The notes beneath the pieces are model-generated. The model was not told the origin of the DNA and made no database searches. It saw only the letters and a program-made list of their open reading frames with translations. A program made the translations under genes and the position numbers. A stretch of DNA of 64,000 nt from Lytechinus pictus (taxonomy: Eukaryota), in assembly GCF_037042905.1 (NCBI RefSeq), contig NC_087245.1, positions 21,764,001 to 21,828,000 on the forward strand, given 5' to 3'. This document shows, piece by piece, positions 20,227-60,532 of this stretch (position 1 is its first letter; every line of letters starts with the position of its first letter).

Positions 20227-20311
20227 ATGTATTCAGGAAAAAGTTTTCACCTTTCTGTTCTGAGTTCATCTCTACTCCTTGCTCTGATACTTGGCAGAGC
20301 ACGTGGAACGA
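20227..20311 (+). CDS. Receptor gene coding exon 1: signal peptide (MYSGKSFHLSVLSSSLLLALILGRARGT)
   Basis: ATG at 20227, hydrophobic signal-like stretch, donor A|GTAAGT at 20312 (phase 1). An acceptor ctttcag at 20187 implies an upstream non-coding exon. Confidence 0.8.
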
Positions 20312-20530
20312 GTAAGTACGTGTCATACCCCATGGAGGTAATGGCGTACCATCTTATTCATTTACCATAAAGCCATGTTTGATAAAACTATATCAGGCAT
20401 GCTTTATTGGTTTTTTGTTTGCAGAATGTAGACAAACGATCCCTGCCTCGCTACAGACTTACTGGCCATTTGAGAAAGGAATTATAATGGAATTTACTTG
20501 TCGCTGGCTCCATGGCCTCTGTCATGTCTG

Positions 20531-20678
20531 GGGCCCGTTGCAGAAAGAGTTGCAATCAATTGCAACTCTAAAAATCAAGCGCAACTTGATTTTCAACCAA
20601 TCAACAGCGCGCATTTGGGACTTGCGATTTTTTTTTTTTTTACTTGCGTTTAAACGCAACTCTTTCTGCAACGGGCCC
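20531..20678. mobile_element. Harbinger-like palindromic MITE
   Basis: Perfect 23-bp TIR gggcccgttgcagaaagagttgc, TSD CTG. Confidence 0.85.
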
Positions 20679-21817
20679 CTGGTCAGAAATATAAGCAGAC
20701 ACATAGCTAACTTTTACGAGGGAAAGCAAAAAATAATGAAACGTTGCAATATTTCTTGAAATATGTTTTAAAATTATTCAACTTGCCGCATGTGGCCGTA
20801 ACTGTGACACATCATAGCACAGCAAATTAATCTTAAATCTTTTTAATGTGGAGTCTTGCGATAATTAATAAAATGCTGGTATAAAAATTGTCAAATTACG
20901 AATGTATACACATTTTGAAACTGTTATACAATGTTTCGCCCAATTTTTAGGACACAATAGGCTTTGAGATATTATTCACGTTTCGTGATCAAATAATATC
21001 AGAAATATTCCCAACTATCTATTTTCAATACAAAACTCTTATAAGTTTTCCCATGAAGCTGGCGGCATCACAGGTCACTAACAAAGGCTACAGTATTATG
21101 CATTCATTTGTATTTCCTTAGAAAATGGCAAATTTTGCTGATGAGTGGTGTATGAATAATAATATGGTCCCTAGTCATACAGCAGAACCCTGGCTTGGCC
21201 ATTGTGACGTATTTTGCAGAGGCGTCATTCCTGGGGGTAGGGAGGGTCGTCCACATGAAAACATTGGGGGCAAACCTATGATTCCACCCCATATAGTTTT
21301 GACATCGTAAAAAAATTAATAATGTATTGTAAATATGTTTTTAAAACATTGAAAAACACTATAAACCATTAAAATTGCATTAAAATGCTACTACGCAAAC
21401 AATTCTTGCTTATAATTGGGCGTGAGTTTTTAACATTTATTTTCACTCCCACCCCACCCATCCAAATCATGGATCGATCGTTTTACAAAACGCAATGACA
21501 TATAGACATGGCCATCCGGCCATATTGGAATAAAGGCCTTACGTCACAATGTTGATTGTGTATACACTGATGTTTCATAATGTGTTCTTGTTTGTCTCAG
21601 TACCCACTCTCGACATAAAAACAAACTGCCACCAAGAATTGTACATCCTAGTATCAAAAAGTGAATTCTTGATATCAAAATTTCAATTCAATTGCATTTT
21701 TTTTTCACTTTGAAGAAATGGGGAAAAAAGTGTTAAAAGGGCCCGCCATACTCCCACTTCACTGTAGGCCCTTTATCTGCCTGAGCAGAAACTCTTTAAT
21801 GACGCATTTGTGATTAA

Positions 21818-22400
21818 AGGTCAAGTCCACTCCAGAAAAATGTTGATTCAAATCAATAGAGAAAGGTAAAAAAAAATAATGCTGAAAGTTTCGTCAAAAT
21901 CGGATATAAAATAAGAAAGTTATGATATACTAAAGTTTCGCTTATTTTCACAAAAGTTATATGCACAATTCAGTAATATGCAAATGAGAGATTCGATGAT
22001 GCTCACTCACTATTTCTTTTGTTTTTTATTGTTTGAATTATGCAATATTCCAGTTTTATACGGATTTGACAGTAAGGACCAACTTGACAATACCATAAAT
22101 GTTAAAACAATGGTAATGCACACATGATCAAGGAGGAAGAAAACTTTGTTTCACAAGAGAATGAGGAGAAACTTAGAATATTTCATATATGATACAAAAG
22201 AAATAGTGAGTGATGTCATCGGTCCCCTCATTTGCATACTGACCAGGATGTGCATGTGACTGTTTTGTGAAATTAAGCGAAACTTTAAAATGCCATAACT
22301 TCTTATTTTACATCCGATTTTGATGAAATGTTTAGTGTTATGCTTGTTGGATTTTTCACTTTTTATTCAAATCAACTTTTTGTTGGGGTGGACTTGTCCT
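21818..22400. mobile_element. TTAA-targeting MITE (Kolobok-like); related copies at ~18790-19268 and 26631-28384
   Basis: ttaa|aggtcaagtccac...gtggacttgtcct termini and long inverted arms shared among three copies. Confidence 0.75.
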
Positions 22401-22663
22401 TTCTATAATATAACCTTAGCGAAAAAAGGGGGCAATGGTAATAATGATATAGATTAAGCCGATGGGGGCGGTAACCCATATATTTTTTAATAGATTAAAT
22501 TTTGTTATGATTGTGTTTCATGAGATAACTTCCTGCAGTGAACTGAATGAAGGGGTAGATAATCTGAAAAAAAGAGAGATGGTTTTGCAATTTTATGAAA
22601 AGTCATAACATTTACCTAAACGTTCTTTTCTTTTTGATGAGAATATATCCTTTCTCATTACAG

Positions 22664-23005
22664 GCACGATCAACATTAGTCTTACTGCTGGTGTTGTTAC
22701 AAGCTTGAAATCTTCGAACTATCCTGACAAGTACGAAAACAATTTACACACTCGTTGGCATGTACACGCACCATCGTCACAAAGAATCCTCGTCACGTTT
22801 AATGATTTCTACACTCAACTTGAAGACATTCTTTTTATCAAGGAAGAGAAAAATCCTTATAGATCAAAGTACACCGGGAAGCGTGTGGAAAGCCCTTTTC
22901 CACCTTTTCTCTCTTTAAGTAACCACATTGAAATCATATTTAATTCCGATTACGAAGAAAATAACAAGGGATTTAACTTGTCACTGTCTGCGACGATTCA
23001 AACTG
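22664..23005 (+). CDS. Receptor gene exon 2: CUB domain
   Basis: ttacag acceptor and G|GTGAGT donor, 342 bp, phase 1-1. CUB motifs SSNYPDKY, RILVTFNDF, SLSNHIEIIFNSD..KGF. Confidence 0.9.
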
Positions 23006-23335: not shown

Positions 23336-24313
23336 CAGTGCGTATCAAAAAAAAGTTTACACTTTGAAAAAGCCCTGGGTATTAAAAAATATACAACATG
23401 TGGGTAGTTTTTCCACGTATAATGTTGTGTTTGGGTCTCATCTATCCAATGAAATTAAACGTTTTGACAGAATGTTACACTTGAGTGAGCACTGTCCATT
23501 TTTGTAAAACTCGCAGAAATCTGTTTGCGCAGAAATGCTCGTTTTCACGCTGTGTCAAGGGAAAAGGGCGAAATCAAACTTACCTTGCGAAACATTTCTC
23601 AAACATTTATCTTGTACTTTTAGTCAATTGAAATAAAATGGATCCATTCAAAGATTTTGTAACAATTTTGCCACTCAAATTGAAATTTCAACACTTAGTA
23701 AGCACAACCTTTACCCTTTTTGTGCCAGCTGGATCTGAGGACATAACTAAATCTAAACAAAAATTTATATCAGACATCTCCAGCAGTTTTTCACTAAGTT
23801 TTCATCATTTAAAGTAGGTTTACATTTCATTTTTCATTTAATACTTGTTTCTCCACACTTTTTCCAAGCTTGACAATGATTAACAAAATGAAAATCAAGC
23901 CTAAGCAATTTCATGTAAATCACAGCTCAGTGTAAACAAATATCGTCACGATGGCCTCGGTGTGTGGGGGAGTGGGGTGGGGCGCAATGCACTCTTCGAA
24001 GTGTTTTGGGCAAGGAAACAAGTTTAAAAGGGTAAAAGATATCTTCAAATCAATTTCATTAGCTAAATTCCACGTGTTCTTCATGATTAAGGTCTACTTT
24101 TATTCGCATAACAATTTCAAAGTTTTGCGCAAATCATTTTTCACGAACTTTTCAAAAGTAAGTGGTGCTCACTCAAGCGGAAATATTTTTCGACAGTTTT
24201 ATCGTCATTTGCTTAAATGGATCTGTACCAATGTTAAAATGTGAAAAAATCTTCAGGATATTACAAATGTATAATTTTGTATAAAAGTGTAAACTTTGTT
24301 TTGATACGCACTG
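23336..24313 (+). mobile_element. Tc1/mariner-like MITE (copy 1)
   Basis: TA|cagtgcgtatcaaaa...tttgatacgcactg|TA. Direct copy at 53451-54433. Confidence 0.88.
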
Positions 24314-26233: not shown

Positions 26234-26446
26234 AAATTAGTACTTCTTCTCAAAACGAAGCTGGAAACGAAAGATCTAAGGAATCGGAGCATATCAGAGT
26301 CTTAAATCAAATAGTATGTAGAGACAAATGGCATGCCGGTGTTGCAGACACTATTTGTAGAGAGGCAGGTTTTCCAGGATCATACGAAACATCATGGGGT
26401 GATTCTACTACAATATTAAATGGAACAAGCTATACGTGTAATGAAA
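26234..26446 (+). CDS. Receptor gene exon 3: SRCR domain, N-terminal part
   Basis: Polypyrimidine acceptor ttctcttctcaag, donor A|GTGAGT, 213 bp, phase 1-1. VCRDKWHAGVADTICREAGFPG matches the SRCR VCxxxW...A.VVCRQLG pattern. Confidence 0.85.
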
Positions 26447-28475: not shown

Positions 28476-28556
28476 AAACTCACCGTCTTAGGGATTGTAA
28501 CTCTTCGATATCCCAGTGTTCGAAGACTTCTAACTCAGTGATTGTAACCTGCAACG
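28476..28556 (+). CDS. Receptor gene exon 4: SRCR domain, C-terminal part
   Basis: ttacag acceptor, G|GTGAGT donor, 81 bp, phase 1-1. KTHRLRDCNSSISQCSKTSNSVIVTCN supplies the last three SRCR cysteines. Confidence 0.8.
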
Positions 28557-29393
28557 GTGAGTGTGTGCAAAGATTACAGTTGGCAAATAGTTAGATAATT
28601 CATCAGGGTAAACTTATATTAGTTAAATGAATTCTAAAACACATGACATTATCATGATTATGATGGGGTGACCATAATTTGCGCACATTTTAAAAATGAT
28701 CATGAAGTTTTTTTGCACTCAAAAAATTATCACAGTTCACACAAAATTAATCAAAATTGTCAATACCAGACGGAAGGCAAGATTCCAAGGTCAAATTCGC
28801 TTGACGGAATTATAAAGTAGGTCAAGGGTTTTGCTCGTATCGCGATCTCAAAATTCAACGGCGATCGACTGGTGCGCGCTCGGCTGAAAAAGTGTCATAA
28901 AAACGTGTGACCTTAATTTGCGCACGGTCGTTTTGCAAAGCTTAAGAAAAGAAATCAAGCAGACAAAGGTAAGATAATTATATCAGATGGAGGTCAAAAT
29001 GCCATAAATTCGGTTAGTTTCACATTTTACTTACCTTTTTGGAGACCTCTGCTTGCAAACTGGTGATTTCTTGATGCTTGCCGAGAAGATCGGATTTTTT
29101 CGGAGCGGACGCAAAAGGTAACAAATTCGCCAATGTTTTGCCAATATTTTCACAATTTGAGACCTAACCTTCGAGAAAATTACCATACTGAGTAATTTTT
29201 TTTCTGTTGGTGAAATCAGTTTTTCAAGAGATTTTCGACCGGGCGTAAAATTAGGTAACGCGCGAATTAAGGTCACACCACCATATTTAAATGAAAAATC
29301 GTCAAATTAAAAGCCTTAAGTACTCTGAGAAAATAGGCATAAAGCTCTGGTGCAAGTTTGAAATGTGCGTTATTATTATTGTTATTATTATTA

Positions 29394-29579
29394 TTATGAA
29401 AATGCTTACCATGATTTTCTTATTTACGAAATAATTGGATATATTCATTTGATTTGCTAGTTCATTACGATTAACTTGCACGCCGAATAAAAAGTACACA
29501 ATTTTCCTGCGCGCGCGCTGCATCTCCCTATGAACGCACTATCCCAAGATCATCGCGCAAATGGGCGTCCATTTCCTCT
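29394..29579 (-). repeat. DIRS 3' inverted terminal repeat with terminal extension
   Basis: 29437-29579 is the reverse complement of 37333-37484 (3 substitutions, one 9-bp indel). 29394-29436 is a unique extension. Confidence 0.92.
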
Positions 29580-29735: not shown

Positions 29736-29798
29736 ACCAACACGGATTCAACGTGAAGGGAGGCATGTCTAGAAAAAAAGTGCGCAAAATAAGGGAGA

Positions 29799-30900
29799 TT
29801 AAGACACGGAGGCCGCTGCCTTGAGGGCAGAGGAGGCAAATAAGGCCTCTCCCGAAGGAATGTCCTTTAAATAAAAGGAATTAAAGGAGTTGGAAGAGCG
29901 CCAAAAGGCAGCTCTTAAAATGTCGTCTAAGGCGACTCCATTGAAAAGAGCCCCGGCCAAGAAGTAGCGATACTTTGTGTATCATGGGCTCTCGGCCTAG
30001 TGTCCGAAAGGAGAGCATCATCACCAGCTGATTTGATCGCCTCAACGATCCAGCGGGAGATGGTGTCTCGCGACGCTGCCACAAACGGCTCGCGCGACGT
30101 GACAAACAACTGATTTGCGAAGCGACTTCGTTCTATCCAGATACCATTTCAACGCCCTGACCGGGCACCAGACTTTGTCCTCGGCAACCGAGGAAAGATC
30201 TGAAAGAGGAGCTAGGAAGAACTCAAATCGAACGAGAGGTGGTAGTCTGATTCTTGCCAATGAAAGACAGTGTGGGGATCAAGCGGACTCCACGCCGTTC
30301 CCACCGGATGTGACCGGAAGAAATACACAAAGCGTGAATAGGCTGCGTCTTTGACCGGATGCTACAGCAATTAGAAAGGCAGTCTTAACAGACAAATTAT
30401 GCAAGGAGCTCTTGGCCAGAGGCTCAAATGGAGGTTTAGCCAAGGCGTTAAGCACAGCCGGTAGACACCAGGAAGGAGCCAGACTTTTCTTCGGAGGTCG
30501 CTTTAGGAAAAACGCTCTCATCAGTCTAGAGAGAAGACTGGCATTAGGGACGTTGGAGCCATCTGGGAATCCGGAATGAAACGCGGCAATAGCCGACCGG
30601 AAGCCCCTAATGGTAGAAAGCGAACGACCGATGTCGAAAAAGTGAACAAACAAATCCGCGATCGCGGCAAGAGAAGCGCTGCGAGGATCAACAGACCGCG
30701 CAGCGCACCAATCTGAAAATCGGCCCAAACGAGAATTGTAAAGATCAAGAGTCGAGTTTCTCCGACTTTGCATCACCAATTGTGAGGCACGATCAGAAAG
30801 GCCTAACGCTCTCGCGTCCTGCCCGATAACGCCCATGCAGTTAAGTGGAGGACCGCTGGACGAGGATGCACGATTCCCGACAGAGGTTGAGATACTATTT
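29799..30900 (-). pseudogene. DIRS tyrosine recombinase (frameshifted; 5' limit approximate)
   Basis: SRRNSTLDLYNSR, KTAFLIAVASGQRRS, CPVRALKWYL, RAHDTQS and AAFWRSSNSFNSFYLKD are spread over several frames. Stop at 29799-29801. Confidence 0.9.
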
Positions 30901-30958
30901 CTGATCTCAGAGGAAGTATGAGCGGATCCCCCTCCAACAATTCTAGGAGCTGTGGTAA

Positions 30959-31417
30959 TCAGCACCTCCTTGGCCAATTGGGGGCCAATAGAAGAAGCCA
31001 AGCTTGGTCTTCCTTCACTTTCCTCAATACCTGCGGTATTAGGTGGAACGGAGGAAACGCATAACACCTCCGATCCAGCCAATGAATGGAGAATGCATCC
31101 AGGGAAGTTGCTTCTGTTTCGTTGACACGAGAGCAGAACATCGGTAACTTCCGGTTGAGAGCCGTGGCAAACAAGTCTATTTCCAGGGGCCCCCAGTGGG
31201 CTTGGACAGACTGAAATATCTCCGGGTGAAGCGACCATTCGGATGGTAGGCACCGGCCCCGTGACAGAAAATCGGCTATCAGGTTGTCGCTGCCTGGAAT
31301 GTACGAGGCAATTGGAACGATCTTCGCATGGCGGCACCACTCCCAGAGCTCCGCAGCGAGGGCGTTGAGAGAGCTCGATCGGGCCTTGAGGGCCTTGGCG
31401 ATTGATGTACGCCGCAA
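30959..31417 (-). pseudogene. DIRS RNase H C-terminus plus DNA adenine methyltransferase-like domain
   Basis: YIPGSDNLIADFLSR (RNase H end), then IDLFATALNRK..FCS, DAFSIHW, YAFPP and LLAPNWP, typical of the DIRS1 MT domain. Confidence 0.85.
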
Positions 31418-32658
31418 CTGACTTGTTGTCTGTGCGAATCAGGACCGTTCGTTCGACTAACCTGTGTCGGAAATGCTGAAGGGAGTTCATGACAGCCTTC
31501 ATCTCCAACACATTGATATGAGGTAAGGTGCGTTGGGACGACCAGACACCCGAGGTCATCTCCCCCGCACAATGGCCGCCCCATCCCGTAAGCGACGCAT
31601 CTGTAGTCAGAGCGGCTGATGGGAGGGGAGTGCGGAAGGGCTTGCCCCTCGCTACAAAGGACGATCGCATCCGGGCGGCCAGGCTGAGACGGATCTCCTG
31701 AGACAGTGGGATCCGGAGATGCAGAGAATCTACGCTCGGTCTGTAATAGCGCAGGAGGTGTCTCTGAAAAGGTCTCATAAGCAGGCGACAATCCCAAAGG
31801 ATGTCGACAAGGCTTGCCATAAACCCGAGCAACCTCAGCCATGTGCGAGCTTTCACAGAGCTGCGAGCCAGAGAGACGATTGCCCGAACTCTGTCGGGGC
31901 TTGGTCGAGCGATCTGGTTTGGCAGGTCTAGAACCACGCCCAAGTATGTGGGTACGCGGGAAGGCGAGAGATCCGATTTCTCCCAATTCACTACGAATCC
32001 CAACTCCTGTGTGACCCGCAGGAGAAGGGATACGTGTAAAAGGAGTTTGGTCTTTGAACTTGCGGCTAGCAACCAGTCGTCTAGATAAACGAAAACCCTG
32101 AGGCCTCGTTCTCTCAGGTGGGCGTCCACTGCTGTGACCACCCTAGTGAAGACTCTTGGTGCCGGGCGTAAACCGAAGGGCATTGCCCGGTATCTGTATG
32201 TCGCTTCAACCCAACAGGTCCCGTGAAGCGGAATGAATTGGTATGTGGAAATAGGCGTCCCTGAGGTCTAGGGAGACGGCCCAATCCGATGCCTGTAGAG
32301 ACGGCAGAATCGATGCTAGTGTTTCCATTCTGAAATGGTCTGGCTGGATGAATTTGTTGATCATTTTCATGTTCAAAATCATCCTCAATTTCCCCGAGCG
32401 CTTGGGGACGACGAAGATAGGAGAGAGACAGAGATGTGGACTGTCTGGAACCCTCTCTATCGCCTCCTTCTCCAGCAGTGCACCGTTTTCTGCTTCGATG
32501 TACTGCTGATGAAGAAAAGAAACGGTCGGCGGGGCGGATCGAATCGCGCCGTGCGGGAAGGCCTCTATATTGATATAGAAGCCATCTCGCACGACAGATA
32601 AGATAAAAGCGTCGGAGACGACCGCCGACCGGTCCCAGCGCTCGGGAAAACCCGTCAA
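31400..32658 (-). pseudogene. DIRS reverse transcriptase and RNase H (frameshifted)
   Basis: SPIFVVPKRSGKLRMILN, SLDLRDAYFHIPI, MPFGL..AP..F, VYLDDWL, LTTDASLTGWG, HINVLE, IRTDN. Frame breaks near 32200 and 31400. Confidence 0.93.
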
Positions 32659-32699
32659 AGAGGCTGTTTGGGCCTGGCCGGAGCCCTGTAGGCTGGCCG

Positions 32700-34204
32700 G
32701 CTGCCCCTACCCCAACCACCACGTGAGGTACTCACCGGAGGTCTAGTGCGAGCTCTGCGACTTGGCGGCGCGGGTGCACAGGGTTGAGATGGGGCCACCA
32801 CGGGACGAAAGGAAGGACGGGCCTTGGGGGCCGGCTACTTCGTGGGTGGAGCCATCGGGCGCGAGGCTTTGAGTTCTTAAAGAAGCTCCGAAGCCTGTTT
32901 GCGTCCGTCGATCTCTTCTTTGAGAAGAGAGGCCACCTCGCCCCCGAACAAATGTTTGTTCGATTGGGGGACGCCCGGGAGGAACTCTAGAAAGTCCTTG
33001 GACGCGATGCCCAGTCTACTAAGGACGCAAGTTCTGCACGAGTTGGATGCAGTAGTGGCTGCAGTAGCTAGTTGCATCCAGAGCTCGCCTACCAAGGACA
33101 AAAGTGCCTCATCAAGAAGGACACTGTCGTTGGCTGTCACTTCCAGTTTGGAGGACTGTGCTCTTAAACCGAGCAAGGCCCTGAAGAAGGCTGTAAGTCT
33201 GAGGGCTGAACAAGTCAAGGCCTCATATCTAACGTCCGCTTTCTCAACAGTGGCAAAATGACTGGAAGAGAAACGGGTCCCCAAACGTGCCCCGATGCGG
33301 TTAAGCTGGGGGGAGAACGTCTTGGGGGTGAAGAACGCCTCGGTGTTGTCCTTGGAGAAGGCAAAGTTCTTTCCGAAGGACACCGGTTTTCTTCCCTGGG
33401 CGGCAGGCATGCTAGCCTGTAAGGCCGCCCTCTCGTATGCAGCCTTGAAATCATTGGTGAGTGGAATACCTTGAGGGGTTTTCCGTGGCTGCGAGAAGAA
33501 AAGAGAGTCCATATCTCCCTCTACCGGCTCATTAGCAGGGTAGATGTGCGGAAGATATCTATGGAGGATCTCTGTGGCGTCCTGGGCCGTGCTGGCAGAC
33601 GGTTGAGGAGCCGGGCTACTCGGAGGATCGGGATTGAACTTGTCCTCCGATAAAGCCTGTTCCGCCTCCAGAGGGGGGAACCAACCCACGTCTCCTCACT
33701 TGGCGGAGCCCCGAGGGTAGCAGGCGCCCGTGAAAGGCTTGAGTGGCGGTGCTTCGCCGACGCTCCCTTGAGGAGTCTGACACGGCATCGAGCCTAGTCT
33801 GTGCCAGAAGGAGAGGCCCGTGCTCTTCCCCGGTCTTTGGGTGACCCGATAGCCGGTGGGTCTGGCAGCCCTGGAGGAGTCGGCGTTTTCTGAGCTAGTA
33901 CGACGCTCCCCAAATATGGTTCAGGTTCCGGGACGGAAGCCTGGGCTATCACTTTGCGGGCACGTGGTTGCAGTTCCATGGTTCCACCCTTCTTTAGTTG
34001 GGCACATGGACGCGCTTCCACGGTTCCACCCCCATGGGCACGTGGACTCGGATCCATGGTTCCACCCTTCTTAGAACCCACGAGGGATCTTTCTCTGTTG
34101 CTTTCTACATTACCACTGGTAAGGAACAGAACCCCGGTGTTGGACACCTCTCCAGCGGCCATTTCGAGCTCTTCTAGGGAGGAATCCGAGAGGCTAATGC
34201 TCAC
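32700..34204 (-). pseudogene. DIRS ORF1 (gag-like), frameshifted
   Basis: GC-rich ORFs 33794-34204 and 32877-33689 lie directly upstream of RT in the same orientation. Assigned by position only. Confidence 0.65.
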
Positions 34205-34664
34205 ATAGACGTAAATCTAGTAGCGAGTAGAAAGAACAAAACAGAGAAAACGGGAGGGGGGGGGGTAGGGGGTGAAAAAACCCCAACCCCAGAAGTCAAG
34301 AGACTTCAAACAAAACGAACTGCGAGAATAAGTAAATTTAATTAAATTCAATATCTCAAAGGATAAGTACAAAGAAGTACTATCACAGTTAAAGGGAACA
34401 GTAATAATTAAGAAATTTTCATGAAAAAACTCTCCTTTTTTTTGTTCGTTAAGAAAACACAACAAGAAAACCGCTCCTGCTAGATTCCTGAAAGAACCAC
34501 CTAAGAAAAAACGCAACGTTTTTTTTTTTGTGTGTGAAAACCTGTTCAGAAAAAAAAAAATTATAAGTCTGAGGTTAAGAACAGGATCAGCTGAGAAAAA
34601 AAAAAGCTAATCTGAAAAGGAAAGAAGAAAATAAAAGCTTGCTTTCCTGAAAAAGGAAGACCTG

Positions 34665-36630
34665 GGGCCCATTTCATAAAGGTACAGCGTCAGCGTCAAG
34701 TCCCAAAACAGCGTCAAATTTTCACTTGCAGCTTCAAATTCAATATTTGACGCTGCAGCGCATTTCATAAAAAGTTGACGCTCCAGTGGGAGCGTCAACT
34801 TTTTACTGGAGCGTCAAGTATGGTTACTGGAGCGTCAAATAGGGTTAAATATTTGACGCTGGTCATGGGGGAGCGTCAAGTTGACACTGTAAAAGGTTTT
34901 CATTGTGAAGAATGGCATACGTTGTGCTCAGGCATGCCCAATGGGCTCTTACAAGAGAACGGATATCTAGAGCAATGTCTATGATAATAATGCTAATGAA
35001 GAATAATTTAAGGTAATGCTTTCTAGTAGAAATGCCGTTTCTTTTTTTTTTGTTCTACCTATCCCCCCCCAAAAAAAATGTTTAAAAATTCCTCCGAAAC
35101 AGCAAATTTTCCAGTCTTTCCCAGGGCAGGCAAATGGAAAAAAAGGGAGGTTATAGACAGACTTAAAAAAAAAAAAAATGGAGAGGATTTTTTTTTCTTG
35201 TGGGAAAAAAAAGACAGGTAGATCTATTATGTGTGTGGAAGTGTTTAATTCAAGGCCTAAATTAAAAAAGCCCTAGACCATAAAAAAGGTTACACTTCGT
35301 AATTCCGAACGTTCTTTATTCCGAAGGTCCGTAATTCCGAAACACGTAAATTGCCTATAAGGCTATACCCCGACCTTCGTTAATCTGAAAACGTAAAAGG
35401 GTTCGTTAATCCGAACATTTGTGGCGTTATTCCGAAGGTTCGACAATCCGAAAACGAAATAAGGTTTGATGTTCCGAAGGTTCGTTAATCCAAGAACGAA
35501 ATAAGGTTTGTTAATCCGAAAACGAAATAAGGTTCGTTAGTCCGAAAACGAAATAACGTTCGTTAATCATTTCGTTTTCGGACTAACGAACCTTCGGAAT
35601 TATGAACCTCACTTCGTTTTCGGACTAACGAACCTTCGGAATAATGAAGCTTCGGAATTAGGAATGTATGCGATTAAAAAATGATTGCTTTTTTTTTCTG
35701 TTTCTGACTTTCTCACAAAAAAAAAGTTGTGGCCATGGCATTGTTGAATCCATTTACTGAATGGTTATTCACCGTTGAAACCGATAACTTAAAAATCATT
35801 TCCATTTTTAACAAAAATAATCTTTTAAGGTCATTTTCGATGTTTCATGCATAATTAGAGCCTACACATTTACTTGCTTCAGGGTGATTTTTAATAGCAC
35901 TGCACCAGCAGTGGCCTGCGCCTGCCTTGTTGTTGATACAACCTTGCATTACCGACACAAATAGTCAAGTGTGGGACTGGGATGAAAATTGTACGGTAGA
36001 AACTTTGTTGAAGGTGAAATTTCGACCGGCAATAATAATAAATTTTCCCCCTTTTTAAGATAATTTTTTCCCTGGCATAGGGCTAAATTAAATCAATTCT
36101 CTGAAAACTTACACAATGGAGAAACAATGCTATGCCATCCTGTGACAAATTTATATTTTCTTCTTACTCTCTTCTAGAATTGCAAACTATCGCCATAGAG
36201 CCATCACTCTGCTTCAACTGCTAGTCTTATGCTGCAGACCCTGTTTGCAGCTGCTAAATAATAATTTCGCTCCCGAAAAAATTAATGAGCAAAAAAAATT
36301 CTCTTTCAATTTTTTTTCTTCTAATTTTGCTTCTCAAAGGTGGGGGGGGGGCCACGGGCCGGCTGTGCCCCCCCCCCTGGATCCGCCAGTGCGTTCTACT
36401 TAAACTTATGACTTGAATTGAAAACAAAAAACTGGAGAGAAAGGGGATTTCCCCCTAATCAGCCTCGTACATGACTATTCAAATAAATAGCTGGAAAGTC
36501 AAGCTGACTTTCCAGCGAATGTGCTTTTATGAAATGCAAAGTTGCTAGCATAGCAAGTAAAAGCTGCTATTCTACCAGAGTTGCTATCATAGCAACTTGC
36601 TATGATAGCAACTCTTTATGAAATAGGCCC
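34665..36630. mobile_element. Harbinger-like non-autonomous insertion in the DIRS 5' leader
   Basis: gggcccatttcataaag...ctttatgaaataggccc termini with CWG flanks (ctg/cag, not identical). Confidence 0.55.
35288..35672. mobile_element. Second, inverted copy of the foldback MITE, nested within DIRS
   Basis: Same termini (ggttacacttcg...gaatgtatgcg) as 788-1259 in reverse orientation. Near-TSD ataaaaaa/attaaaaa. Confidence 0.8.
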
Positions 36631-37332: not shown

Positions 37333-37504
37333 AGAGGAAATGGACGCCCAATTGCGCGATGATCTTGGGATAGTGCGTTCGGTGCGTTCGTAGGGAGATG
37401 CAGCGCGCGCGCAGGAAAATTGTGTACTTTTTTTTCGGCGTGCAAGTTAATCGTAATGAACTAGCAAATCAAATGAATATATCCCAGTTATTGATAGTAA
37501 ATTA
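37333..37504 (-). repeat. DIRS 5' inverted terminal repeat
   Basis: Reverse complement of the repeat at 29437-29579. Its outer end matches the ICR. Confidence 0.92.
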
Positions 37505-39241: not shown

Positions 39242-39496
39242 TTATAAATGAGCTTGGATGTTTTAATCTTACCAAATACAAAGTGGATCTGATGTCAAGA
39301 AGTGAAAAGCTTGGAAGGGACCAGTGTTTTACCCACTGCAGGGCGCTATCTTCTCCACAATATGCTGTGCATCGAAACAGATCCGACTGCTCATGTATCA
39401 ACCAATCAGAACTTAATGTTTCCAGTCTTCATCAAGATCGTGATATTTGTAATGAAGCACTTGTCCCAACCGAGTACTGGGCACCTCTCTTCGATT
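39242..39496 (+). CDS. Receptor gene exon 5: WSC-like domain
   Basis: ttaatag acceptor, T|GTAAGT donor, 255 bp, phase 1-1. ELGCF...QCFTHC...QYA...DCSC matches WSC spacing (YxGCF...CxxxC...YA...CxC). Confidence 0.8.
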
Positions 39497-40478: not shown

Positions 40479-40694
40479 TAACTAATGGTTTCTGTGGCGA
40501 TCCCCCTGAAATCGAAAACGGATCTTGGTATAACACAATGAATGGATTCCTATACGGCACAACGATCACCGCTAAGTGTGATGAAAACTATGAGCTTATT
40601 GATGGAGATGGGAGGATGCGATGTGAGGAGAGCTCTACAAATCAAGATTTTGAATGGCATGGAAACATTCCATCTTGCCGAATGAGGAATACTG
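40479..40694 (+). CDS. Receptor gene exon 6: CCP/sushi domain
   Basis: tcatag acceptor, G|GTAAGT donor, 216 bp, phase 1-1. CGDPPEIENG...YGTTITAKCDENYEL.G...C...W.G.IPSC. Confidence 0.92.
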
Positions 40695-43600: not shown

Positions 43601-43929
43601 ATGTTTGTTTTAAAAGGGTTTTCACATCATGATCCTGAAATACATAGATTATATTTAAATTAAAAATAGAGAGAATGGATGGCCTTCATCTAATTTTGGA
43701 AAAGATTTTGCGGGTTCTCAAGTCGAACGCAGTATCAAACATGATTGCATATCGAGGTCGATGCGATTTTTATATCGACATCATTCCCCAGTAGTCCAGT
43801 CAATCTAGCCAGAATAGGGGGGTAACCCACCACTAATTGCAACACAAGATATTCCACTGAAATGTTTTCCAGGAAGGTCCCCTAAACAACATACTAAAAG
43901 TCCCAAGAAATCCAAGCAGTGGAAATTTA

Positions 43930-44895: not shown

Positions 44896-47800
44896 TGACT
44901 AAACAATATGCTATCTGGCCATATCTGGGTCAGGACTGGGTCCCAGGACTTCAGCGTCATCATCATCATGATCAGTGGTGAATACTAAGACTAAAAATAT
45001 TTGCCTTCCTTTAATAATGATATTCCAATGTAATCATAGCTATTGATATTAAGGGCTTCCAACATGCTAATTGTTACAGCCTGGATCATTGTCAATCCGG
45101 TCAACAAATTATGTATTATAGGCTTGTCTATAAACCCTCTTATGGTTCTAATTGTCATGTTAAAACTCTTCGATTAACTTTGATAAATGATACGTAATTT
45201 TGTCTTTAGAATTTTGTCGAGTATCAACAAGCATTCTAAATTGTTTACAAAAGTGCAGTGATCATCGGATTTTTTCAGATGTCACGAATCAAGCACCATT
45301 TCTCGATGATGTTCTATTTTAGAAATAATCTTTTGAGCACCAAACGAAGTATATGTTGTAATGTTATTCAGACCCAGATCGTGAAGTCTGTCCCGATAGA
45401 TGGTTTACAAGAAAAAAATACGCAGACATTTTGGTCGGTCGCCAAATCGCTGGGAAAAAAAATGAAAAGGGCTAAATTTTCCAATAAAACACATTTGATT
45501 TCATACCTATCACATCACAATCATTTAGGGCCATGCTCATATAATACAGTAATAGGGAATGGAATGGTGACATGAACTTTTCTGACCGGGATTTACCAAT
45601 ATAATTATAAACTTAAAAGCTTTAAACCATAAAGAAGGAATATGAACGGATACACTGCAGTTTTTTGTAATAAGAATAGATTAAATAGGAGGCCTACAAG
45701 AAGCATACATTGTGTGTGAATTTTATATCATCAAAAATTATGTTTCTTGGTATTATTCATTGAATGTGTGACTTTCGTAACTTTCAGTATTTTCATTTAT
45801 TATAATCATCAAGGCTGCCACATTCACTACCACCGCCACCACCATCATCAGTGTTAATTATCATCACTATCATCAGCAGGATCATTATAGTCAAGTCAAC
45901 AGCAAATCATCTATGTCATTATCGTAGTTATTGAAATTAGGATCATTTTGGTAAGGAAATAATAAAAATGAGAGAAAGGTTGTAGCGGGAAGGGGGGTGT
46001 GAATTTGTTCTAAAGTAAAATCAATGTGAGTAGAATTAACTTTGTTTTTATCTATATTGCAGTGATGGTAAACATCATTGCAATACTATTTAGGATGCCA
46101 TGATGTTCAATAATTCAAGCTTAAAAATTCAATACTTCACGGGTGAAGATATGGGGCCGTAAGCTGCAGGGAGATAATTATGTAGAATAATATTAAAATT
46201 AGATCATTACTCTAAAATAGATGAAATGTAATTATTATATATTTATTATTTATATTAGTTTGTACACTTAATGGCCTAACGGCAAAAGCAAATAGGGCCA
46301 TGATATAGTCTTCTCCATCAAGAGAATTGAACATTATTTTCCTTTCAGGATTAATTGCTGGGCATTATACTCATCGAACTGTTCTAAGTCATTGCCCAGG
46401 CCTATGATCATGAAAAAGCAAGATCACTGACCCGTATAGTAGAGAATCATTGACAATGGCATGCTCAGCGCGTTCGCCACAGAGAACAATGGGAGAGACG
46501 CGCACAGACTTTAGTTCCCCATATCCGCTGTCGTGATTATAGTCGTAATTTCAATAGATTAACTTACTTCAAAAGACCGTTGGCCGGTCCGATGGGGAAT
46601 CTTTTGTACTATAGTGTATTAAAGTGCGTATATACAGTAACTACCGTCCCGACTTCTTTTGTGCTATTTAAAAGATTTCTTTCACCACCATCGAGTAGCA
46701 ATTAGCACGTAAAATCGCATAAAATACCTGACAAAACGGGTCTAATGTTCATGATTACCAGCATCACCATAATCATTACTATTACCTTTCATATATTTAT
46801 AATTATAGAAAATATAAAATTGACATTGGAGAACGATTGGAAATAGATAATGAATGATGATGATAATGATAATAACAGTGATGATGATAATGATAATAAT
46901 AACAATGAAGTGATATTAACGGACATGATAATACGAATAATAATATAAGTGAAAATGTTGATGATCAAATTATAACAAATGAAGATGATTGGTATATTTT
47001 GCGGTATAATGAACCATGTATAACATGAGACACATTTTTCCTTTATCATGTTTGTTATAAAAGGATTTTTATATCATGATCCTGAAATACATAGATTATA
47101 TTTCAGTTTTCAAACAAAATTAAGAAGAGGGAGAATGGATGGCCTTTATCTAATTATGGAAAAGTTTTTGCTGGTTGCCAAGTCCGATGCAGTATCAATC
47201 ATGATTGCATACCGAGGTCGATGCGATTTTTATATCAACGTCATCATCCCCCAGAGTTTATCAAGTTTAATTTGAGTTTGTGTGCATTTTCGCAAAAATT
47301 GAAATTTGTCATGTTTGTAATACGAGATTATTCTAATTTTAGAGTGCTGTATCATCCGAACTGCATGCCATCCCGGCTATATACGTACGTTTTGAATTCA
47401 TCGCCTAATTCAATTTCTGGATGCATGATACCATGCACTGCAGTTAAAGCGGAATGTCTCGGTCATATGTCAAAACTTAAGGTAATAATATTCAAACATA
47501 TCAGCTCTTTTTTTAACTGTGATCCATATCCACTCACAATTTTCATACAAATCTCGAATTTTCCGCTTCCGCTTCGCATCAGTTGCTTATTTGTATAACT
47601 ATATTTTTCATGATTACAAAAATTGCTTAGAATTTTCATTCTTCAGGTAGAAATGTCAAGATTTTCAGCTCACGCTTCGCGCTCACATTATTAACTTGTT
47701 GAAATATGTAACGTTTTCATTTACGGATATTACAAGCAGCCGTTAACAGTTCCCTTTTTATCAGAATGATCAAAACTCATTTTATTCATCTCGTTTAGGA

Positions 47801-51774: not shown

Positions 51775-53197
51775 CAACCGCGTAGCCAGGATTTCATTTT
51801 GGAGGGGGCGGTAAATACACGCGAAGCGTGCCAACACTTACAGAGCGCGCGAAGTGCGCTCCCTAGGGGGTGGGTGCAAGGAGGGGGAGTTTCCCCCTCC
51901 CTCGCGAAGCGCGAAGCTTTCGGTGTTTTATAAATTAAAATGAAAAGGAGCCGTCTCTCTTGTCTCTAGTACCTATATCAGCTCCAATTCAGTTGACTAT
52001 ATTGTGATTTTGAACCTTATTTTCAAAAGTGATTGTGAACGCACAAAAAAGGAATACAATGGTGGAAATTGAAATAATAATAACCCCGCGCGAAGCCCGG
52101 AAGCTAAAGCGTTTTATCAATTTTTTTGCAAAGAAAAGGGTATTCTCTAAGATATTTTGAATACTTCCCTTGGAAAGATCAGATTTGATTACAAACAATT
52201 TAGCGACAGTGCATATCTTTAACTCCCAAAACAGAGGAGAAGAAGGGTATATGCCGGGAGGAAGATATTCCTCCCCGCGCAGAGCAATGAAACTCTCAAA
52301 TTTCAAAGGGCGGACGTTTCATCAATTGCAGATATCTCTACTACCCCATCGGCTCTAATTCAATTGATTGTCTAAGATTATTGAACTTCATTACAAGGAA
52401 AATAGTGCGCAAAAACTTGAAACTTCTGTGATTTATTGAAATTATATAAAAAAGGATGATGTATAATTTTTTTGACTTATCCTGAAGCGCTTCATTTTGA
52501 ATGATAAAGAAACTTAAGTGTCATTCAAAATTTCAAACTGAGGGCGCAAAAAAGGACACAAGATGAATGTGCAGGGAAATGACATGAAGTTTAATAGAAT
52601 TTGATAAAAAATATTGTACTTTTTTATTTAAAACGACACGAATTTTGTACCTTCCTCTTTTTAAATTAGGAACCTGTTTGCCCCAAAATTATGGTTGTTT
52701 AGTAATGAGCTGTAAAGCAGGAGAAGTTGCCTATATGGAGGTGACGGCAGAAATTGATATAAAGATTTTACCCGCCCGGAGCCGACCCGACCAGAAGTTG
52801 CGCGATCAATTAAAAAAAAAAGATAACTTCATATACTTCGGCCTAACCTTACTCTAATTCCATGTCCTTATGTATACATTTGAACTTTATCTGGCAAAAA
52901 ACACATATAGCTGAGGTAGAAAAATAGGGTTAAAGAAAGGGTGGGGGAAACAATGGAGAACTGCAATATTGTCATTTAATTGACATATAAATTTAGAGCA
53001 AGAGTGAAGGAGTTTCTCTTTTGAGAAAAAAAATAAAGAATGAAAAGGAAAAACCCACAAAGCTACCCTTCTTCCCTTTCCTCCCTTCGCTTTTCCTTTT
53101 CTCCTCTCTTTTTTCTCTTCTTTTTTTTCTTTTTGGGGACGTTTTTTTTTGGGGGGCGACCGCCCCCACCGCCCCCCCTGGCTACACGCCTGGCCTG
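51775..53197 (-). mobile_element. hAT-like MITE, 1.4 kb (copy 2, inverted)
   Basis: Reverse complement of 13685-15110 with its own perfect TSD tcatgatc. Confidence 0.88.
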
Positions 53198-53450
53198 TCA
53201 TGATCCATATTTATACAAGATATATCTTCTTGATTAGCAGCAGGAGATCGCTTGACATCTAGTCCCGCATCAAGTGGACTGGTATTTTGTTCCAATTGCC
53301 GTTTAGTCAAACACTTGCTCTGATATTCAGATATTCACGTGGGCTAAAAGTCATGGATTCTATATAAATGCCCTGATGGTCTATTTTCTACTCATCTACT
53401 TATGTTTTCGCACTTCTTCAACTAAGAGTTTAATTCATAAACAAATTATA

Positions 53451-54433
53451 CAGTGCGTATCAAAAAAAGTTTACACTTTGAAAAACCCCTGATAAAAAAA
53501 AATATACAACATGTGGGTATGTTTTTCACATATAATATTGGGTTTGGGTCTCATCTATCCAATGAAAGTAAAAGTTTTGACAAAATGTTACACTTAAGAG
53601 AGCACTGTCCATTTTTGTAAAGCTCGCAGAAATCTGTTTGCGCAGAAATGCTCGTTTTCACGCTGTATCAAGGGGAAAGGGTGAAATCAAACTTACCCTG
53701 CGAAACATTTCTCATACATTTCCCTTGCACTTTTAGTCAATTGTAATAAAACGGATACATTCAAGCATTTTGTAACAATTTTGCCACCCAAATTGAAATT
53801 TCAACACTTAGTAAGCACAACCTTTACCCTTTTTGTGCCAGCTGGATCTGAGGACATAACTGAATCTGAACAAACGTTTATATCAGACATCTCCAGCATT
53901 TTTTCACTAAGTTTTTATCATTTAAAGTGGGTTTACATTATATTTTTTATTTAATACTTGTTTTTCTACACTTTTTCTAAGCTTGAAAACGATTAACAAA
54001 ATGAAAATCAAGCCTAAGCAATTTCATGTAAATCACAGCTCAGTGTAAAGCAAATATCGTCACGATGGCCTCGGTGTGTGGGGAAGTGGGGTGGGGCGCA
54101 ATGCACTCTTCGAAGTGTTTTGGGCAAGGAAACGAGTTACAAAAGGTAAAAGATATCTTCAAATCAATTTTACTAGCTAAATTCCATGTGTTCTTCATTA
54201 TTATGGTCTACTTTTATTCTCATAACTATTTCAAAGTTCTGCGCAAATTTTTTTTCACTAACTTTTCAAAAGTAAGTGGTGCCCACTCAAGCGGAAATAT
54301 TTTTTGACAGTTATATCGTCATTTGCTTAAATGGATCTGTACCAATGTTAAAATGTGGAAAAATCTTCAGGATATTACAAATGTATAATTTTATGGGATT
54401 TTTCTAAGTGTAAACTTTTTTTGATACGCACTG
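53451..54433 (+). mobile_element. Tc1/mariner-like MITE (copy 2)
   Basis: Same TIRs, TA TSD and internal sequence as 23336-24313. Confidence 0.88.
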
Positions 54434-56856: not shown

Positions 56857-56904
56857 CAACGGCAAGTATGTTCTCCCAGCCAACATCTAACAGGACGGAT
56901 GATG
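56857..56904 (+). CDS. Receptor gene exon 7: short S/T-rich stalk (ATASMFSQPTSNRTDD)
   Basis: Strong polypyrimidine tract ending ctttag, donor G|GTAAGA, 48 bp, phase 1-1, open frame. Confidence 0.7.
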
Positions 56905-57123
56905 GTAAGAATCTGTTTTAAACGGCAGTTGCTAGCATGCCACATATCTATATCTTTAGGCGGATGATGCACATTGCCCTGGGAAGGGCTGTGCTGGGGG
57001 TGATGCGTGTATTATTTTCCATAGGCAGCACCCCAAGAAATTGAGATTATAACTTATTTTTTTACTAATATCTACGCATGCGGCTTTATTGTGAAAATGA
57101 TATTGTTTTAAATTAATTCACAG

Positions 57124-57277
57124 AAAATGGTCCGGTGAAAAGTCGTCTCGGAATTTCAGTAGGCGGAAAAATCGCAATCATCGTCTCCATTTTTGTTATC
57201 GGCGCCATATTTTGCGGTGGTCTCTTTTTGCGGAAACGGCAGAAAGAAGATGATAATGGAGATGAAACATCTATGGG
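57124..57277 (+). CDS. Receptor gene exon 8: transmembrane helix
   Basis: tcacag acceptor, GG|GTAAGA donor, phase 1-2. IAIIVSIFVIGAIFCGGLFL is followed by the stop-transfer RKRQK. Confidence 0.88.
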
Positions 57278-57717
57278 GTAAGAACAACTTCAAATCATTC
57301 TTATTTTGAAAAGAATGCAAATTTTTGTGAGAATAATTACTAACCAAATCAAACACTATAATGAGAAAACGTAGAATATCACAATTTCACTTTCACCATT
57401 TACTTTTCATTTATCACTTTAGCTCAGAAAAATATAACTTTTACTTAATCGACATTTCCAGCACACGTCTATGATTATTATATGAATAATACTGAAATTA
57501 GCATGCCACTGGACACATATGTCCATTTTATGGATTAGCACTTTTAAAAGTTCTTATTACAATACTTTTTGCACCATGCTATATGAGTATATAAGCAATT
57601 TATTTCTAAAACGAAACTTTTCGCAACAATTGTTTTTTTAATATGATTTTAAATGAGCCATTTCTTTTCAGATTAATGCACTAACCTGCTACTATTCATT
57701 TTTCATGCACCTCATAG

Positions 57718-57786
57718 TTGCACATTCAGGTCATGTGATGCCGGTGATGATCAGTGTTGTCGAATAAAACGTGTTATTCAAGGCAA
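57718..57786 (+). CDS. Candidate optional cassette exon, Cys-rich juxtamembrane peptide (CTFRSCDAGDDQCCRIKRVIQGK)
   Basis: Branch-like actaac and ctcatag acceptor. 69 bp, phase 2-2, open if the weak donor AA|GTATTG is used. Confidence 0.3.
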
Positions 57787-58391
57787 GTATTGCTTTTAAA
57801 TGCAAGACCGGACGGTGGTGGCGCTGCAGAGAAGGGGAAACCAATCCTCGTTATGATTACAAAGTTATCTGAGAAGAGAAAATAATGAGACGCTTTTAAT
57901 TATTTTCCTTAGAAGATAAGAGTGAATTTTTTTTTTAAAATTTGTCACAACAGTAAGCCCAAATAGTTGTCATAATGTGTTCATCTGTTCTACACTACGA
58001 TAATGGTGAGGAAAAGGGGTGCGAGTCAATTTAATATTTTCTTTTTAAAACGCAAATATTTTATATCATGTATATAGTTGGTTGTTTGTTTCCCTTTATG
58101 TGGAAAGGCATTGGAGTAGACCTCCAAGTACTCCAACCTATACATATTGAGTATTTATAGTGTATACGGGGATGTGCCGCTAAGAACGTTTATTTTTTTT
58201 AATCAAGAAAAGGGGTTTCCTTTCACAAAAAGTACTTAAATATTGGCTCGTTCAAATTAATAAGTTATCATGATAACTTGAATATATAACGATTACTTAA
58301 CGCAAACCTACATGGAAGTCGGCATGTGATTGTAAAAGAAATGTCTATGTGAATGATCATTAAGGGTTGTAAAATCCCATTTCAATCATAG

Positions 58392-59391
58392 GAGTCTTTG
58401 CCAGCTGTGCTCTTTCAACACCAAAGGAGAGTCCCATGGACCTAGAAGATCAGAAACCCACAATCCAGAAGGAACGTCAAGATTCCATCAACCTTTCTGG
58501 ATCCCTTATCCTACAGAAGTCATCGAAAATGAATACGAATGTAGCATAAAGACGGAACATCCTGTGACCACAGATTCGCCGGTGATAATCCGACAAAATC
58601 AATCTTCTCCCTCCGACTTGACAAGTTTCCGTTCTCCAAATTCTACCAGTGACGCCCCAAGTCAGGAAGCTTCAGGTGTGGAGGAAAATTACCAGTCCAT
58701 CTCCGACTCGACGATTTCTATCACGAATGCTTATCCGTCAATGCAGGCTAGACCAGGGTTAGTTGAGACAAGCGCTCACTTGCGTTCTGTAAACGCTCGA
58801 CCCCTCCCTGACCGACCAGTAAGCGAAGATCGTCCTTACGCTGAACTTGACACCGAGGATGACCGTGCGAATGAATTTCCACCTACCAGGGAAGAACAAA
58901 GCTATCACGATCCTCTATCTCTGTGGGCAAGTGATCCGAATCTTTTCAGAAGATCATCTGTTGTTGGACCCCATCCAAATGAGGTTCCTCCCTTAACAGT
59001 AGGTGTCGATGATTGTGCCCGGGTGGTCCAACCTGGACCTGAGCGAAATGGAATTCCCGATGAGGTGATTTCTGAAGGTTCAGTTGATAATCATAGTACA
59101 CATGAGTATGAATATGCATCCATCCCAGGCGATCATTCTATGATAAGGTCTCTAAGGGGGAGAGGGGCTCAGAGTCAATTATCATGCTCTGACAAGAAGT
59201 ACTACTCAATCCAAGGCCCTCTTCTTCAAGGTGAAAGCAAGGATGTCCAGGCTGGTGAACATCGTTATCCTCTAACAGGAGAACCGCCATCACAAGGTCC
59301 ATATTATTATGGATTGGAACCTGATGGTATGATTCAAAATCCATTGTACAAATCCCTGGAATCTTTTTTTATAGTTTCATCACTTTCCTAA
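58392..59391 (+). CDS. Receptor gene terminal exon: long cytoplasmic tail with tyrosine and proline motifs
   Basis: tcatag acceptor in phase 2, matching exon 8. 1000-bp open frame that includes the 275-aa track ORF and ends at TAA 59391. Confidence 0.85.

Positions 59392-60491: not shown

Positions 60492-60532
<41 letters not shown>

What the first reader, a model, noticed from the sequence alone, without database searches (positions are those of the whole stretch)
20227..59391. Orphan mosaic receptor: SP-CUB-SRCR-WSC-CCP-TM-long tail (~797 aa)
Seen: nine exons join in frame with canonical GT-AG sites, and all ectodomain exons are phase 1-1, which is the signature of exon shuffling. Several exons are absent from the ORF track. 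Known: CUB, SRCR and CCP are recognition or complement-type modules, and WSC with CUB also occurs in Kremen. I do not recognise this four-domain order as a named family. Inference: a lineage-specific recognition receptor, possibly immune.
Basis: partly seen in the sequence, partly recalled or inferred. Interest (0 to 1): 0.7.

Follow-up and report, generated by a model that had tools for sequence, protein, structure and literature searches.

The report
Urchin receptor with splice-switched tail
This is a real, spliced sea urchin gene predicted to encode a cell-surface receptor built from four common binding modules; the transcripts recovered appear to carry an overlooked 65-base exon that would cut off its conserved tyrosine-rich inner tail, so splicing likely switches it between a short form and a signalling form.

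Summary
The gene is real. Nine GT-AG exons join into a 797-aa frame. Spliced contigs join SRCR, WSC and CCP exons, and one contig reaches the last exon, so RefSeq's split into a 252-aa 'DMBT1-like' and a 396-aa protein of Lytechinus pictus is wrong. CUB, SRCR and CCP pass or nearly pass Pfam; WSC is only a weak six-cysteine likeness. Contigs from two studies fit a 65-nt exon (57718-57782, GC donor) after the TM exon, by length, boundary and depth arithmetic; I did not read that junction directly. It shifts the last exon's frame and gives 538 aa with an 89-aa tyrosine-free tail. The 348-aa tyrosine/NPxY tail is conserved in S. purpuratus but needs another splice, such as skipping (RefSeq X1), which I saw in no contig. 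This resembles CEACAM1 long/short switching, with inverted logic. The domain mix belongs to a known urchin SRCR expansion. No ligand or immune data exist here. The scan had not noted this gene on other DNA, but has unchecked notes on related SRCR-WSC receptors in this genome.

The parts
20188..20226 (+). Likely 5' untranslated part of the first coding exon, behind a strong acceptor (AG at 20186-20187); implies an unlocated non-coding first exon
   Evidence: Sequence; contigs carry 76 (X1) and 46 (X16) letters before the ATG by position arithmetic. The upstream exon itself was not found.
20227..20311 (+). E1: start codon and likely signal peptide (aa 1-28)
   Evidence: in RefSeq model P0003. 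Signal peptide judged by eye from the hydrophobic stretch; no predictor run.
22664..23005 (+). E2: CUB domain without any cysteine (aa 29-142), phase 1-1
   Evidence: Pfam CUB E 1.8e-13; best PDB sequence hits cubilin and neuropilin CUBs; 0 Cys
26234..26446 (+). E3: first part of a degenerate group A SRCR domain (aa 143-213), phase 1-1
   Evidence: Pfam SRCR E 0.012 alone; its last 30 nt are the loose end before E4 in 3 of 4 runs shown (compared)
28476..28556 (+). E4: second part of the SRCR domain (aa 214-240), phase 1-1
   Evidence: A contig lies on this exon, and not on the first about 80 nt of intron behind it, in 4 of 4 runs; E3+E4 give SRCR E 1.5e-5 and six Cys
39242..39496 (+). E5: WSC-like module with six Cys (aa 241-325), phase 1-1
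   Evidence: First 30 nt are the loose end behind E4 in run X1; ESM feature hit to a WSC cluster 0.92; weak fold likeness to Kremen1 and Wsc1 WSC, Z about 4
40479..40694 (+). E6: CCP/sushi domain with four Cys (aa 326-397), phase 1-1
   Evidence: Pfam Sushi E 3.3e-12; X1 contig lies here at record 1053-1267, exactly 255 letters after E4
56857..56904 (+). E7: short S/T-rich stalk (aa 398-413), phase 1-1
   Evidence: Only strong phase 1-1 candidate near the TM exon; its 3' part is in RefSeq P0001; length fits the X16 contig
57124..57277 (+). E8: transmembrane helix (about aa 427-449) and basic stop-transfer stretch, phase 1-2
   Evidence: Hydropathy peak 2.7; in RefSeq P0001
57718..57782 (+).
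   Evidence: X16 contig has 738 letters between E4 and E9 against 673 in the nine-exon model; X1 and X16 contigs both align from 58390 (an upstream exon ending in AG); X1 depth 0.88 in bin 57409-58075 equals 64 letters of its depth-9.18 contig; only 65-nt candidate ending in AG. Junction letters not read directly.
58392..58549 (+). Start of the last exon in the frame reached with E8b: 51 further codons and stop TAA at 58547-58549 (538-aa form, 89-aa tail, no Tyr)
58392..59391 (+). E9 in the long frame: 332 open codons, S/P/E-rich, 15 Tyr, NPxY at aa 781-784, stop 59389-59391
   Evidence: identical to RefSeq P0001; 33% identical over 321 columns to S. purpuratus P0002, E 4e-30
58494..58516 (+). 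Candidate internal acceptor (CAG at 58514-58516) that would put E8b in frame with the long tail (777 aa); not seen used
   Evidence: Pyrimidine share 0.75, tied second of 67 AG sites in E9 and first among those of phase 1; translation

Best explanation
This is one spliced sea urchin gene, predicted to encode a type I membrane receptor (CUB, degenerate SRCR, WSC-like, CCP), whose assembled transcripts appear to include a 65-nt exon that would give a short tyrosine-free tail, while a second splice form likely restores a conserved tyrosine-rich tail predicted to recruit SH2/PTB adaptors. Shown: one transcript from SRCR to last exon, the domain content, the long open frame and its conservation. 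Inferred from arithmetic: inclusion of the 65-nt exon. Inferred: the long form is made in other cells or states, most simply by skipping that exon as in the RefSeq X1 model; the ectodomain binds a protein or glycan ligand; the short form, possibly palmitoylated on its Cys cluster, binds without tyrosine signalling, and the long form signals or is taken into the cell through its NPxY and YxxPhi motifs.
For: One transcript: (X1 contig of 1370 nt carries E4 at 717-797 and E6 at 1053; X16 contig of 1973 nt carries E4 at 687-767 and the last exon from 1504). Only 2 donors preceded by AG exist in that intron and only one gives 65 nt. Long frame is coding: 0 stops in 332 codons against 26 and 17 in the other frames, chance about 3e-8; organism B contig has 36 gap letters, net +30; S. 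purpuratus P0002 keeps the YAEL, HxYE, KYYSI and NPLY blocks. The E8-E9 direct junction is in RefSeq XP_063961355.1. Precedent: CEACAM1 53-bp exon 7 (PMC11646291, passages).
Against: No contig or read showing the long-tail junction was seen; it rests on a RefSeq prediction whose support I could not see. The E8-E8b and E8b-E9 junction letters were not displayed (233 joints were cut from the table). X16 depth in that bin is 1.42, of which the contig explains only 0.53. Whether organism B includes E8b is undetermined. Six of 13 alignable tail tyrosines are kept in P0002, no more than the 33-44% background identity. No ligand, localisation or phosphorylation data exist here. All runs that carry the gene are contigs, which drop rare forms and give no ratios.
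Confidence: 0.5

Rival explanations
1. E8b is constitutive, and the switch lies elsewhere: the long tail is made by joining E8b to an internal acceptor at 58516 (777 aa) or by a GT donor four bases downstream at 57786 (820 aa).
For: Both are in frame. The 58516 site is more pyrimidine-rich (0.75) than the used acceptor (0.55) and has the right phase. E8b reads as a natural Cys-rich juxtamembrane segment. P0002 aligns only from about aa 542, so it does not show the first part of the long frame to be conserved.
Against: Neither site is seen used; the contigs run unbroken through 58516. The GT donor matches 5 of 9 consensus letters against 7 of 9 for the GC donor. RefSeq X1 uses skipping.
Confidence: 0.2
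2. The 797-aa long-tail receptor is the main product and acts as an immune pattern-recognition receptor; the 65-nt exon is included only in the tissues sampled or is splicing noise.
For: RefSeq X1 has this junction; the long frame is conserved; SRCR genes are expanded in urchins (PMC10855680) and srcr142 responds to Vibrio in L. pictus larvae (PMC11688612, passages).
Against: In 2 of 2 same-species contig runs that reach the last exon, one contig explains all depth there and it fits inclusion. The SRCR's N-terminal part is unmatched by the Pfam profile, which starts at position 21 of 100. Nothing ties this gene to immune cells.
Confidence: 0.15
3. The protein is a non-immune co-receptor or uptake receptor, in the manner of Kremen, neuropilin or cubilin: the CUB binds a basic patch of a protein ligand, and the tail form sets whether the complex is internalised.
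For: Best structure-backed sequence hits of the CUB are cubilin and neuropilins; the WSC-like model's top matches include Kremen1; NPLY is conserved.
Against: These are generic domain likenesses (E 1e-7 to 1e-5; Z about 4). There is no kringle. The calcium-binding signature is only partly recognisable.
Confidence: 0.25
4. The long frame is being lost in this lineage: a recently gained exon has silenced an ancestral tail, and only the short protein is made.
For: Only the short form is seen in contigs; the donor is a GC site.
Against: The long frame has no stop or frameshift in the window, X1 and X16 contigs lie on it with 0 gaps, and organism B's gaps sum to a multiple of three.
Confidence: 0.08
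5. Two separate genes, as RefSeq has it: a secreted 252-aa CUB-SRCR protein and a 396-aa TM-plus-tail protein.
For: XP_054758303.1 and XP_063961355.1.
Against: Single contigs bridge E4 to E5-E6 (X1) and E4 to the last exon (X16); 0 of 4 runs cover the intron read-through that ends the 252-aa model.
Confidence: 0.02

Closest known systems
RefSeq models XP_054758303.1 ('DMBT1-like', 252 aa) and XP_063961355.1 (LOC135155633 isoform X1, 396 aa) of Lytechinus pictus
   Same: Same locus: 238 of 240 and 396 of 396 residues identical to the model
   Different: They split the gene; neither holds the WSC-like or CCP exon; the first ends in intron 4, the second starts at an internal Met and lacks the 65-nt exon
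S. purpuratus LOC100888003 (XP_003726794.1, 319 aa)
   Same: Tail homologue, 33% identity over 321 columns, same tyrosine blocks and NPLY
   Different: Annotated as a stand-alone tail with no TM or ectodomain, so the architecture could not be compared
Sea urchin group A SRCR superfamily expansion (PMC10855680; section 2.2 and passages read)
   Same: Six-Cys SRCR with signal peptide, TM and tail; sushi (38), WSC (36) and CUB (35) are among the five commonest partner domains in S. purpuratus
   Different: One degenerate SRCR split over two exons, where the tandem-array genes described there have single-exon SRCRs. Whether this exact order is in their Table S6 could not be read
CEACAM1 long and short isoforms (PMC11646291; passages read)
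   Same: A small frame-shifting exon after the TM exon decides whether the tail carries tyrosine sites; proximal and distal stops
   Different: Unrelated proteins; here inclusion gives the short tail, the exon has a GC donor, the long tail is 348 aa with NPxY and no ITIM pattern
Kremen1/2 (kringle-WSC-CUB-TM; architecture recalled)
   Same: WSC-like and CUB modules before a single TM
   Different: No kringle, reversed order, added SRCR and CCP, six-Cys WSC, unrelated tail

Membership tests
SRCR superfamily, group A | SRCR domain with six conserved cysteines (PMC10855680 passage) | tested here: met
   Cys 171, 184, 211, 221, 228, 239; Pfam SRCR E 1.5e-5 over profile 21-100
SRCR superfamily, group A | Complete domain above the Pfam cut-off | tested here: inconclusive
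   25.7 bits against 26.1; first 20 profile positions unmatched; single-sequence fold too poor to judge (pLDDT 36.8)
DMBT1 (RefSeq label) | Group B, eight-Cys SRCR domains; many SRCR repeats and a ZP domain (recalled) | tested here: not met
   One six-Cys SRCR; no ZP hit in any exon scanned
Kremen | Kringle-WSC-CUB order (recalled) | tested here: not met
   No kringle in any exon; order is CUB-SRCR-WSC-CCP and contig lengths leave no room for a further domain exon
WSC domain (PF01822) | Profile match | tested here: not met
   No Pfam match at E up to 1 or 10; no PDB sequence match at E up to 10
WSC domain (PF01822) | WSC/PAN-type fold with eight Cys (number recalled) | tested here: inconclusive
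   Six Cys; low-confidence model (pLDDT 48.7) matches Kremen1 Z 4.3/rmsd 3.4/79 aligned, Wsc1 Z 4.0/3.6/70, tied with PAN/apple domains; ESM WSC cluster 0.92, 180 of 256 features
Calcium-binding CUB | Tyr-Glu-Asp-Asp signature (PMC10850435 passage) | tested here: inconclusive
   Candidate Tyr52, Glu82/Asp83 and Asp124 are present, but the loop between the two middle ligands is shortened and aligns differently to cubilin and neuropilin
CCP/sushi (PF00084) | Four Cys, Trp before the last, profile above cut-off | tested here: met
   47.1 bits against 20.7, full profile; Cys 331, 359, 374, 392
ITAM/ITIM immunoreceptors | Conserved paired YxxL/I (ITAM) or I/V/L/SxYxxL/V (ITIM) (patterns recalled) | tested here: not met
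   No ITIM pattern; one loose ITAM pattern at Tyr770/784 with 10-residue spacing whose second half is not kept in P0002
CEACAM1-like long/short tail switch (works-like, not kin) | Both tail forms exist as mRNA and their ratio is regulated | tested here: inconclusive
   Short form fits contigs of two studies; long form only as RefSeq model; ratios not obtainable from contigs
Pattern-recognition receptor | Binds microbial ligands; expressed in immune cells | not testable with these tools
   Run tissues are coded and no binding assay is available

The most novel reading that the evidence does not exclude
An invertebrate deuterostome has independently evolved a CEACAM1-like on/off switch: a GC-donor micro-exon toggles a dual-coding last exon between an 89-aa palmitoylatable tail and a 348-aa multi-tyrosine signalling tail on an SRCR-family recognition receptor. 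The switch is regulated by cell type or infection and may be shared by other urchin receptors whose tails stand as orphan genes in RefSeq.
Probability: 0.25. Interest if true: 0.65.

Novelty: new variant of a known kind. Interest (0 to 1): 0.42.

Why it matters
How the many sea urchin SRCR-type receptors signal is poorly described in the papers I could search. This gene has a conserved tyrosine and NPxY tail and a single small exon that appears to remove it, which is directly testable by RT-PCR and by a splice-blocking oligo in L. pictus larvae. It also corrects a split and mislabelled annotation, and warns that orphan tyrosine-rich ORFs in urchin gene sets can be out-of-frame receptor tails. 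The domain order alone is ordinary shuffling of modules already known to mix in urchin SRCR genes.

Tried and rejected
No whole genome is held, so paralogs were not counted. Protein searches: tail against longer proteins, 0 of 1376 candidates; CUB exon against longer proteins, 1 of 167 (P0003); P0001 at near lengths, 1 of 2366 (itself); tail against 1.84 billion representatives, 2 hits. These searches are word-limited, so the lack of a full-length ortholog is weak evidence. Metagenome scans: 0 of 59 stretches for the tail; 2 of 100 for P0003, both 29% identical generic CUB matches, not followed. No RNA holder was listed as RNA on record; the spliced contigs are what shows RNA. One raw-read run (X20, about 6% read) had no depth on E6 or E9: uninformative. 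The first lay was swamped by intronic repeats. Single-sequence AlphaFold of P0003 failed and was not searched. Ribosomal -1 frameshifting into the long frame: no slippery heptamer in E8b or 58392-58549. Re-initiation: first in-frame Met is aa 582 and is not kept in P0002. Assembly indel in E9: contigs lie with 0 gaps. Exon candidates at 52670-52711 and 53685-53951: inside high-copy repeats. I tried to infer organism B's tail phase from contig overlaps and dropped it, since overlaps among X1 contigs vary (24 and 83 nt). Literature: 9 searches found no paper on this gene or order; LOC100888003 gave 0 papers; accessions were absent from 2 supplement files of PMC11688612; the supplement of PMC10855680 with domain tables could not be read and may list this architecture.
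Full report
Observation. I rebuilt the gene from the window. Exon 2 is a CUB (E 1.8e-13) and exon 6 a sushi/CCP (E 3.3e-12). Exons 3 and 4 together form one six-Cys SRCR (E 1.5e-5, just under the cut-off, first 20 profile positions unmatched). Exon 5 has no Pfam or PDB sequence match. Its WSC label rests on an ESM feature hit (0.92) and on weak matches of a low-confidence model to Kremen1 and Wsc1, tied with PAN/apple folds. The CUB has no cysteine.

Identity. Named protein records show the locus as Lytechinus pictus. RefSeq holds it as two pieces: XP_054758303.1 (252 aa, 'DMBT1-like', exons 1-4 plus intron read-through) and XP_063961355.1 (396 aa, starting at a Met in exon 7). The only other relative found is a 319-aa S. 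purpuratus model that matches the tail alone (33% over 321 columns, E 4e-30). PMC11688612 (passage) gives about 40 million years between the two species.

One gene. In one search a contig lay on exon 4 in 4 of 4 runs, with no cover of the first about 80 nt of intron behind it. The letters before it were the end of exon 3 in the 3 runs whose row was shown (X1, X3, and X6 of organism B), and the letters after it were the start of exon 5 in X1 (checked). The same X1 contig (1370 nt, depth 7.07) carries exon 6 from record position 1053, exactly 255 letters after exon 4 ends at 797. An X16 contig (1973 nt, depth 5.48) carries exon 4 at 687-767 and the last exon from 1504. So the RefSeq split is wrong. 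Junctions 6-7 and 7-8 were not read directly; their lengths fit the X16 total and 7-8 is in the RefSeq model.

A missed exon. The X16 contig has 738 letters between exon 4 and the last exon; the nine-exon model has 673. Both same-species contigs that reach the last exon (X1, X16; two studies) align from 58390, two letters into the intron. That needs an upstream exon ending in AG, whereas the TM exon ends in GG. In the intron there are only two donors preceded by AG, and only the GC-type donor at 57782 gives a 65-nt exon, 57718-57782. X1's mean depth in the bin 57409-58075 is 0.88, equal to 64 letters of its depth-9.18 contig; the same arithmetic reproduces four other bins (the organism B bin by hand, note). 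X16's depth there (1.42) exceeds the 0.53 its contig explains. The junction letters themselves were not displayed. With this exon the last exon is entered in another frame and stops at 58547-58549: 538 aa, with an 89-aa tail holding five Cys and no Tyr. In both runs one contig accounts for all depth at the start of the last exon, but contigs drop rare forms.

The long frame is still coding. It has 0 stops in 332 codons against 26 and 17 in the other frames (chance about 3e-8). An organism B contig lies on it with 67 differences and 36 gap letters, net +30 (single gaps not shown). The S. purpuratus protein keeps the blocks around Tyr614, 704, 735/736, 770 and the NPLY motif at 781-784. Six of 13 alignable tyrosines are kept, which is no more than background, so the evidence is the blocks, not a tyrosine excess. 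There is no ITIM pattern, and the loose ITAM pattern is not conserved. Three splices would read this frame: skipping the 65-nt exon (797 aa, RefSeq X1), joining it to an internal acceptor at 58516 (777 aa), or a GT donor at 57786 (820 aa). I saw none in the contigs. Slippery-site frameshifting, re-initiation and an assembly indel were checked and rejected.

How it most likely works. Inferred: a single-pass receptor binds a protein or glycan ligand with its four modules, and splicing after the TM exon sets its output. The short, Cys-rich tail could be palmitoylated and lacks tyrosine sites. The long S/P/E-rich tail offers SH2- and PTB-type docking and uptake motifs (motif roles from general knowledge). 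I put 0.97 on one gene, about 0.9 on the 65-nt exon, about 0.75 on a long form being made by splicing, and 0.5 on the whole account. Immune versus developmental or uptake function is open.

Comparison. PMC10855680 (section 2.2 and passages) reports sushi, WSC and CUB among the five commonest partners of SRCR in S. purpuratus, so the ingredients are a known urchin mix; its domain tables could not be read. The gene is not DMBT1 (group B SRCRs) and not Kremen (no kringle, other order). The tail switch works like CEACAM1, where a 53-bp exon decides whether tyrosine sites are present (PMC11646291, passages), but with inclusion giving the short form. PMC10850435 (two passages) supplied the calcium-binding CUB signature, only partly recognisable here. 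Other papers were seen as search listings only. Nine literature searches found nothing on this gene. Unchecked notes of this scan describe related SRCR-WSC receptors and other split mosaic receptors in this genome; none concerned this sequence.

Verdict. A real, mis-annotated receptor gene. The domain order is a modest new arrangement within a known expansion. The more interesting part is the likely frame-shifting exon that uncouples a conserved tyrosine tail; its second isoform still has to be shown. Interest 0.42; new variant of a known kind.

Noticed in passing
window 29750-34250, minus strand (intron 4): GC-rich (50-60%) broken retroelement with reverse transcriptase (E 9.5e-14), RNase H, Dam-like (E 0.005) and integrase SAM-like (E 0.18) pieces in several frames; this set suggests a DIRS-type element (family features recalled).
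   Followed up: partly
window 29422-29579 and 37333-37502: 170-nt inverted repeat, 90% alike, enclosing the retroelement; possibly the ends of a DNA transposon into which it inserted.
   Followed up: no
window about 42100-43800 and 45540-47250 (intron 6): Duplication at about 3.4 kb spacing, 88-93% alike.
   Followed up: no
window 23349-24233 and 53462-54347: Two copies (87-93% alike) of a repeat with very high depth in contig runs, up to about 8500.
   Followed up: no
window 28557-28594: Read-through of exon 4 into the intron ends the RefSeq 252-aa model after 12 codons; no contig covers it in 4 of 4 runs. A minor secreted CUB-SRCR form is not excluded.
   Followed up: partly
window 22664-23005: CUB domain with no cysteines at all and a shortened loop between the acidic residues.
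   Followed up: partly
window 796-1146 and 35298-35658: Related arrays of 16-, 26- and 42-nt units, with internal inverted symmetry in the second.
   Followed up: no
window 1-20000 and 59400-64000: No convincing Pfam match in the 6 longer open frames scanned from these flanks, and no paralogous exon by tblastn within the window: no tandem copy is evident nearby.
   Followed up: partly
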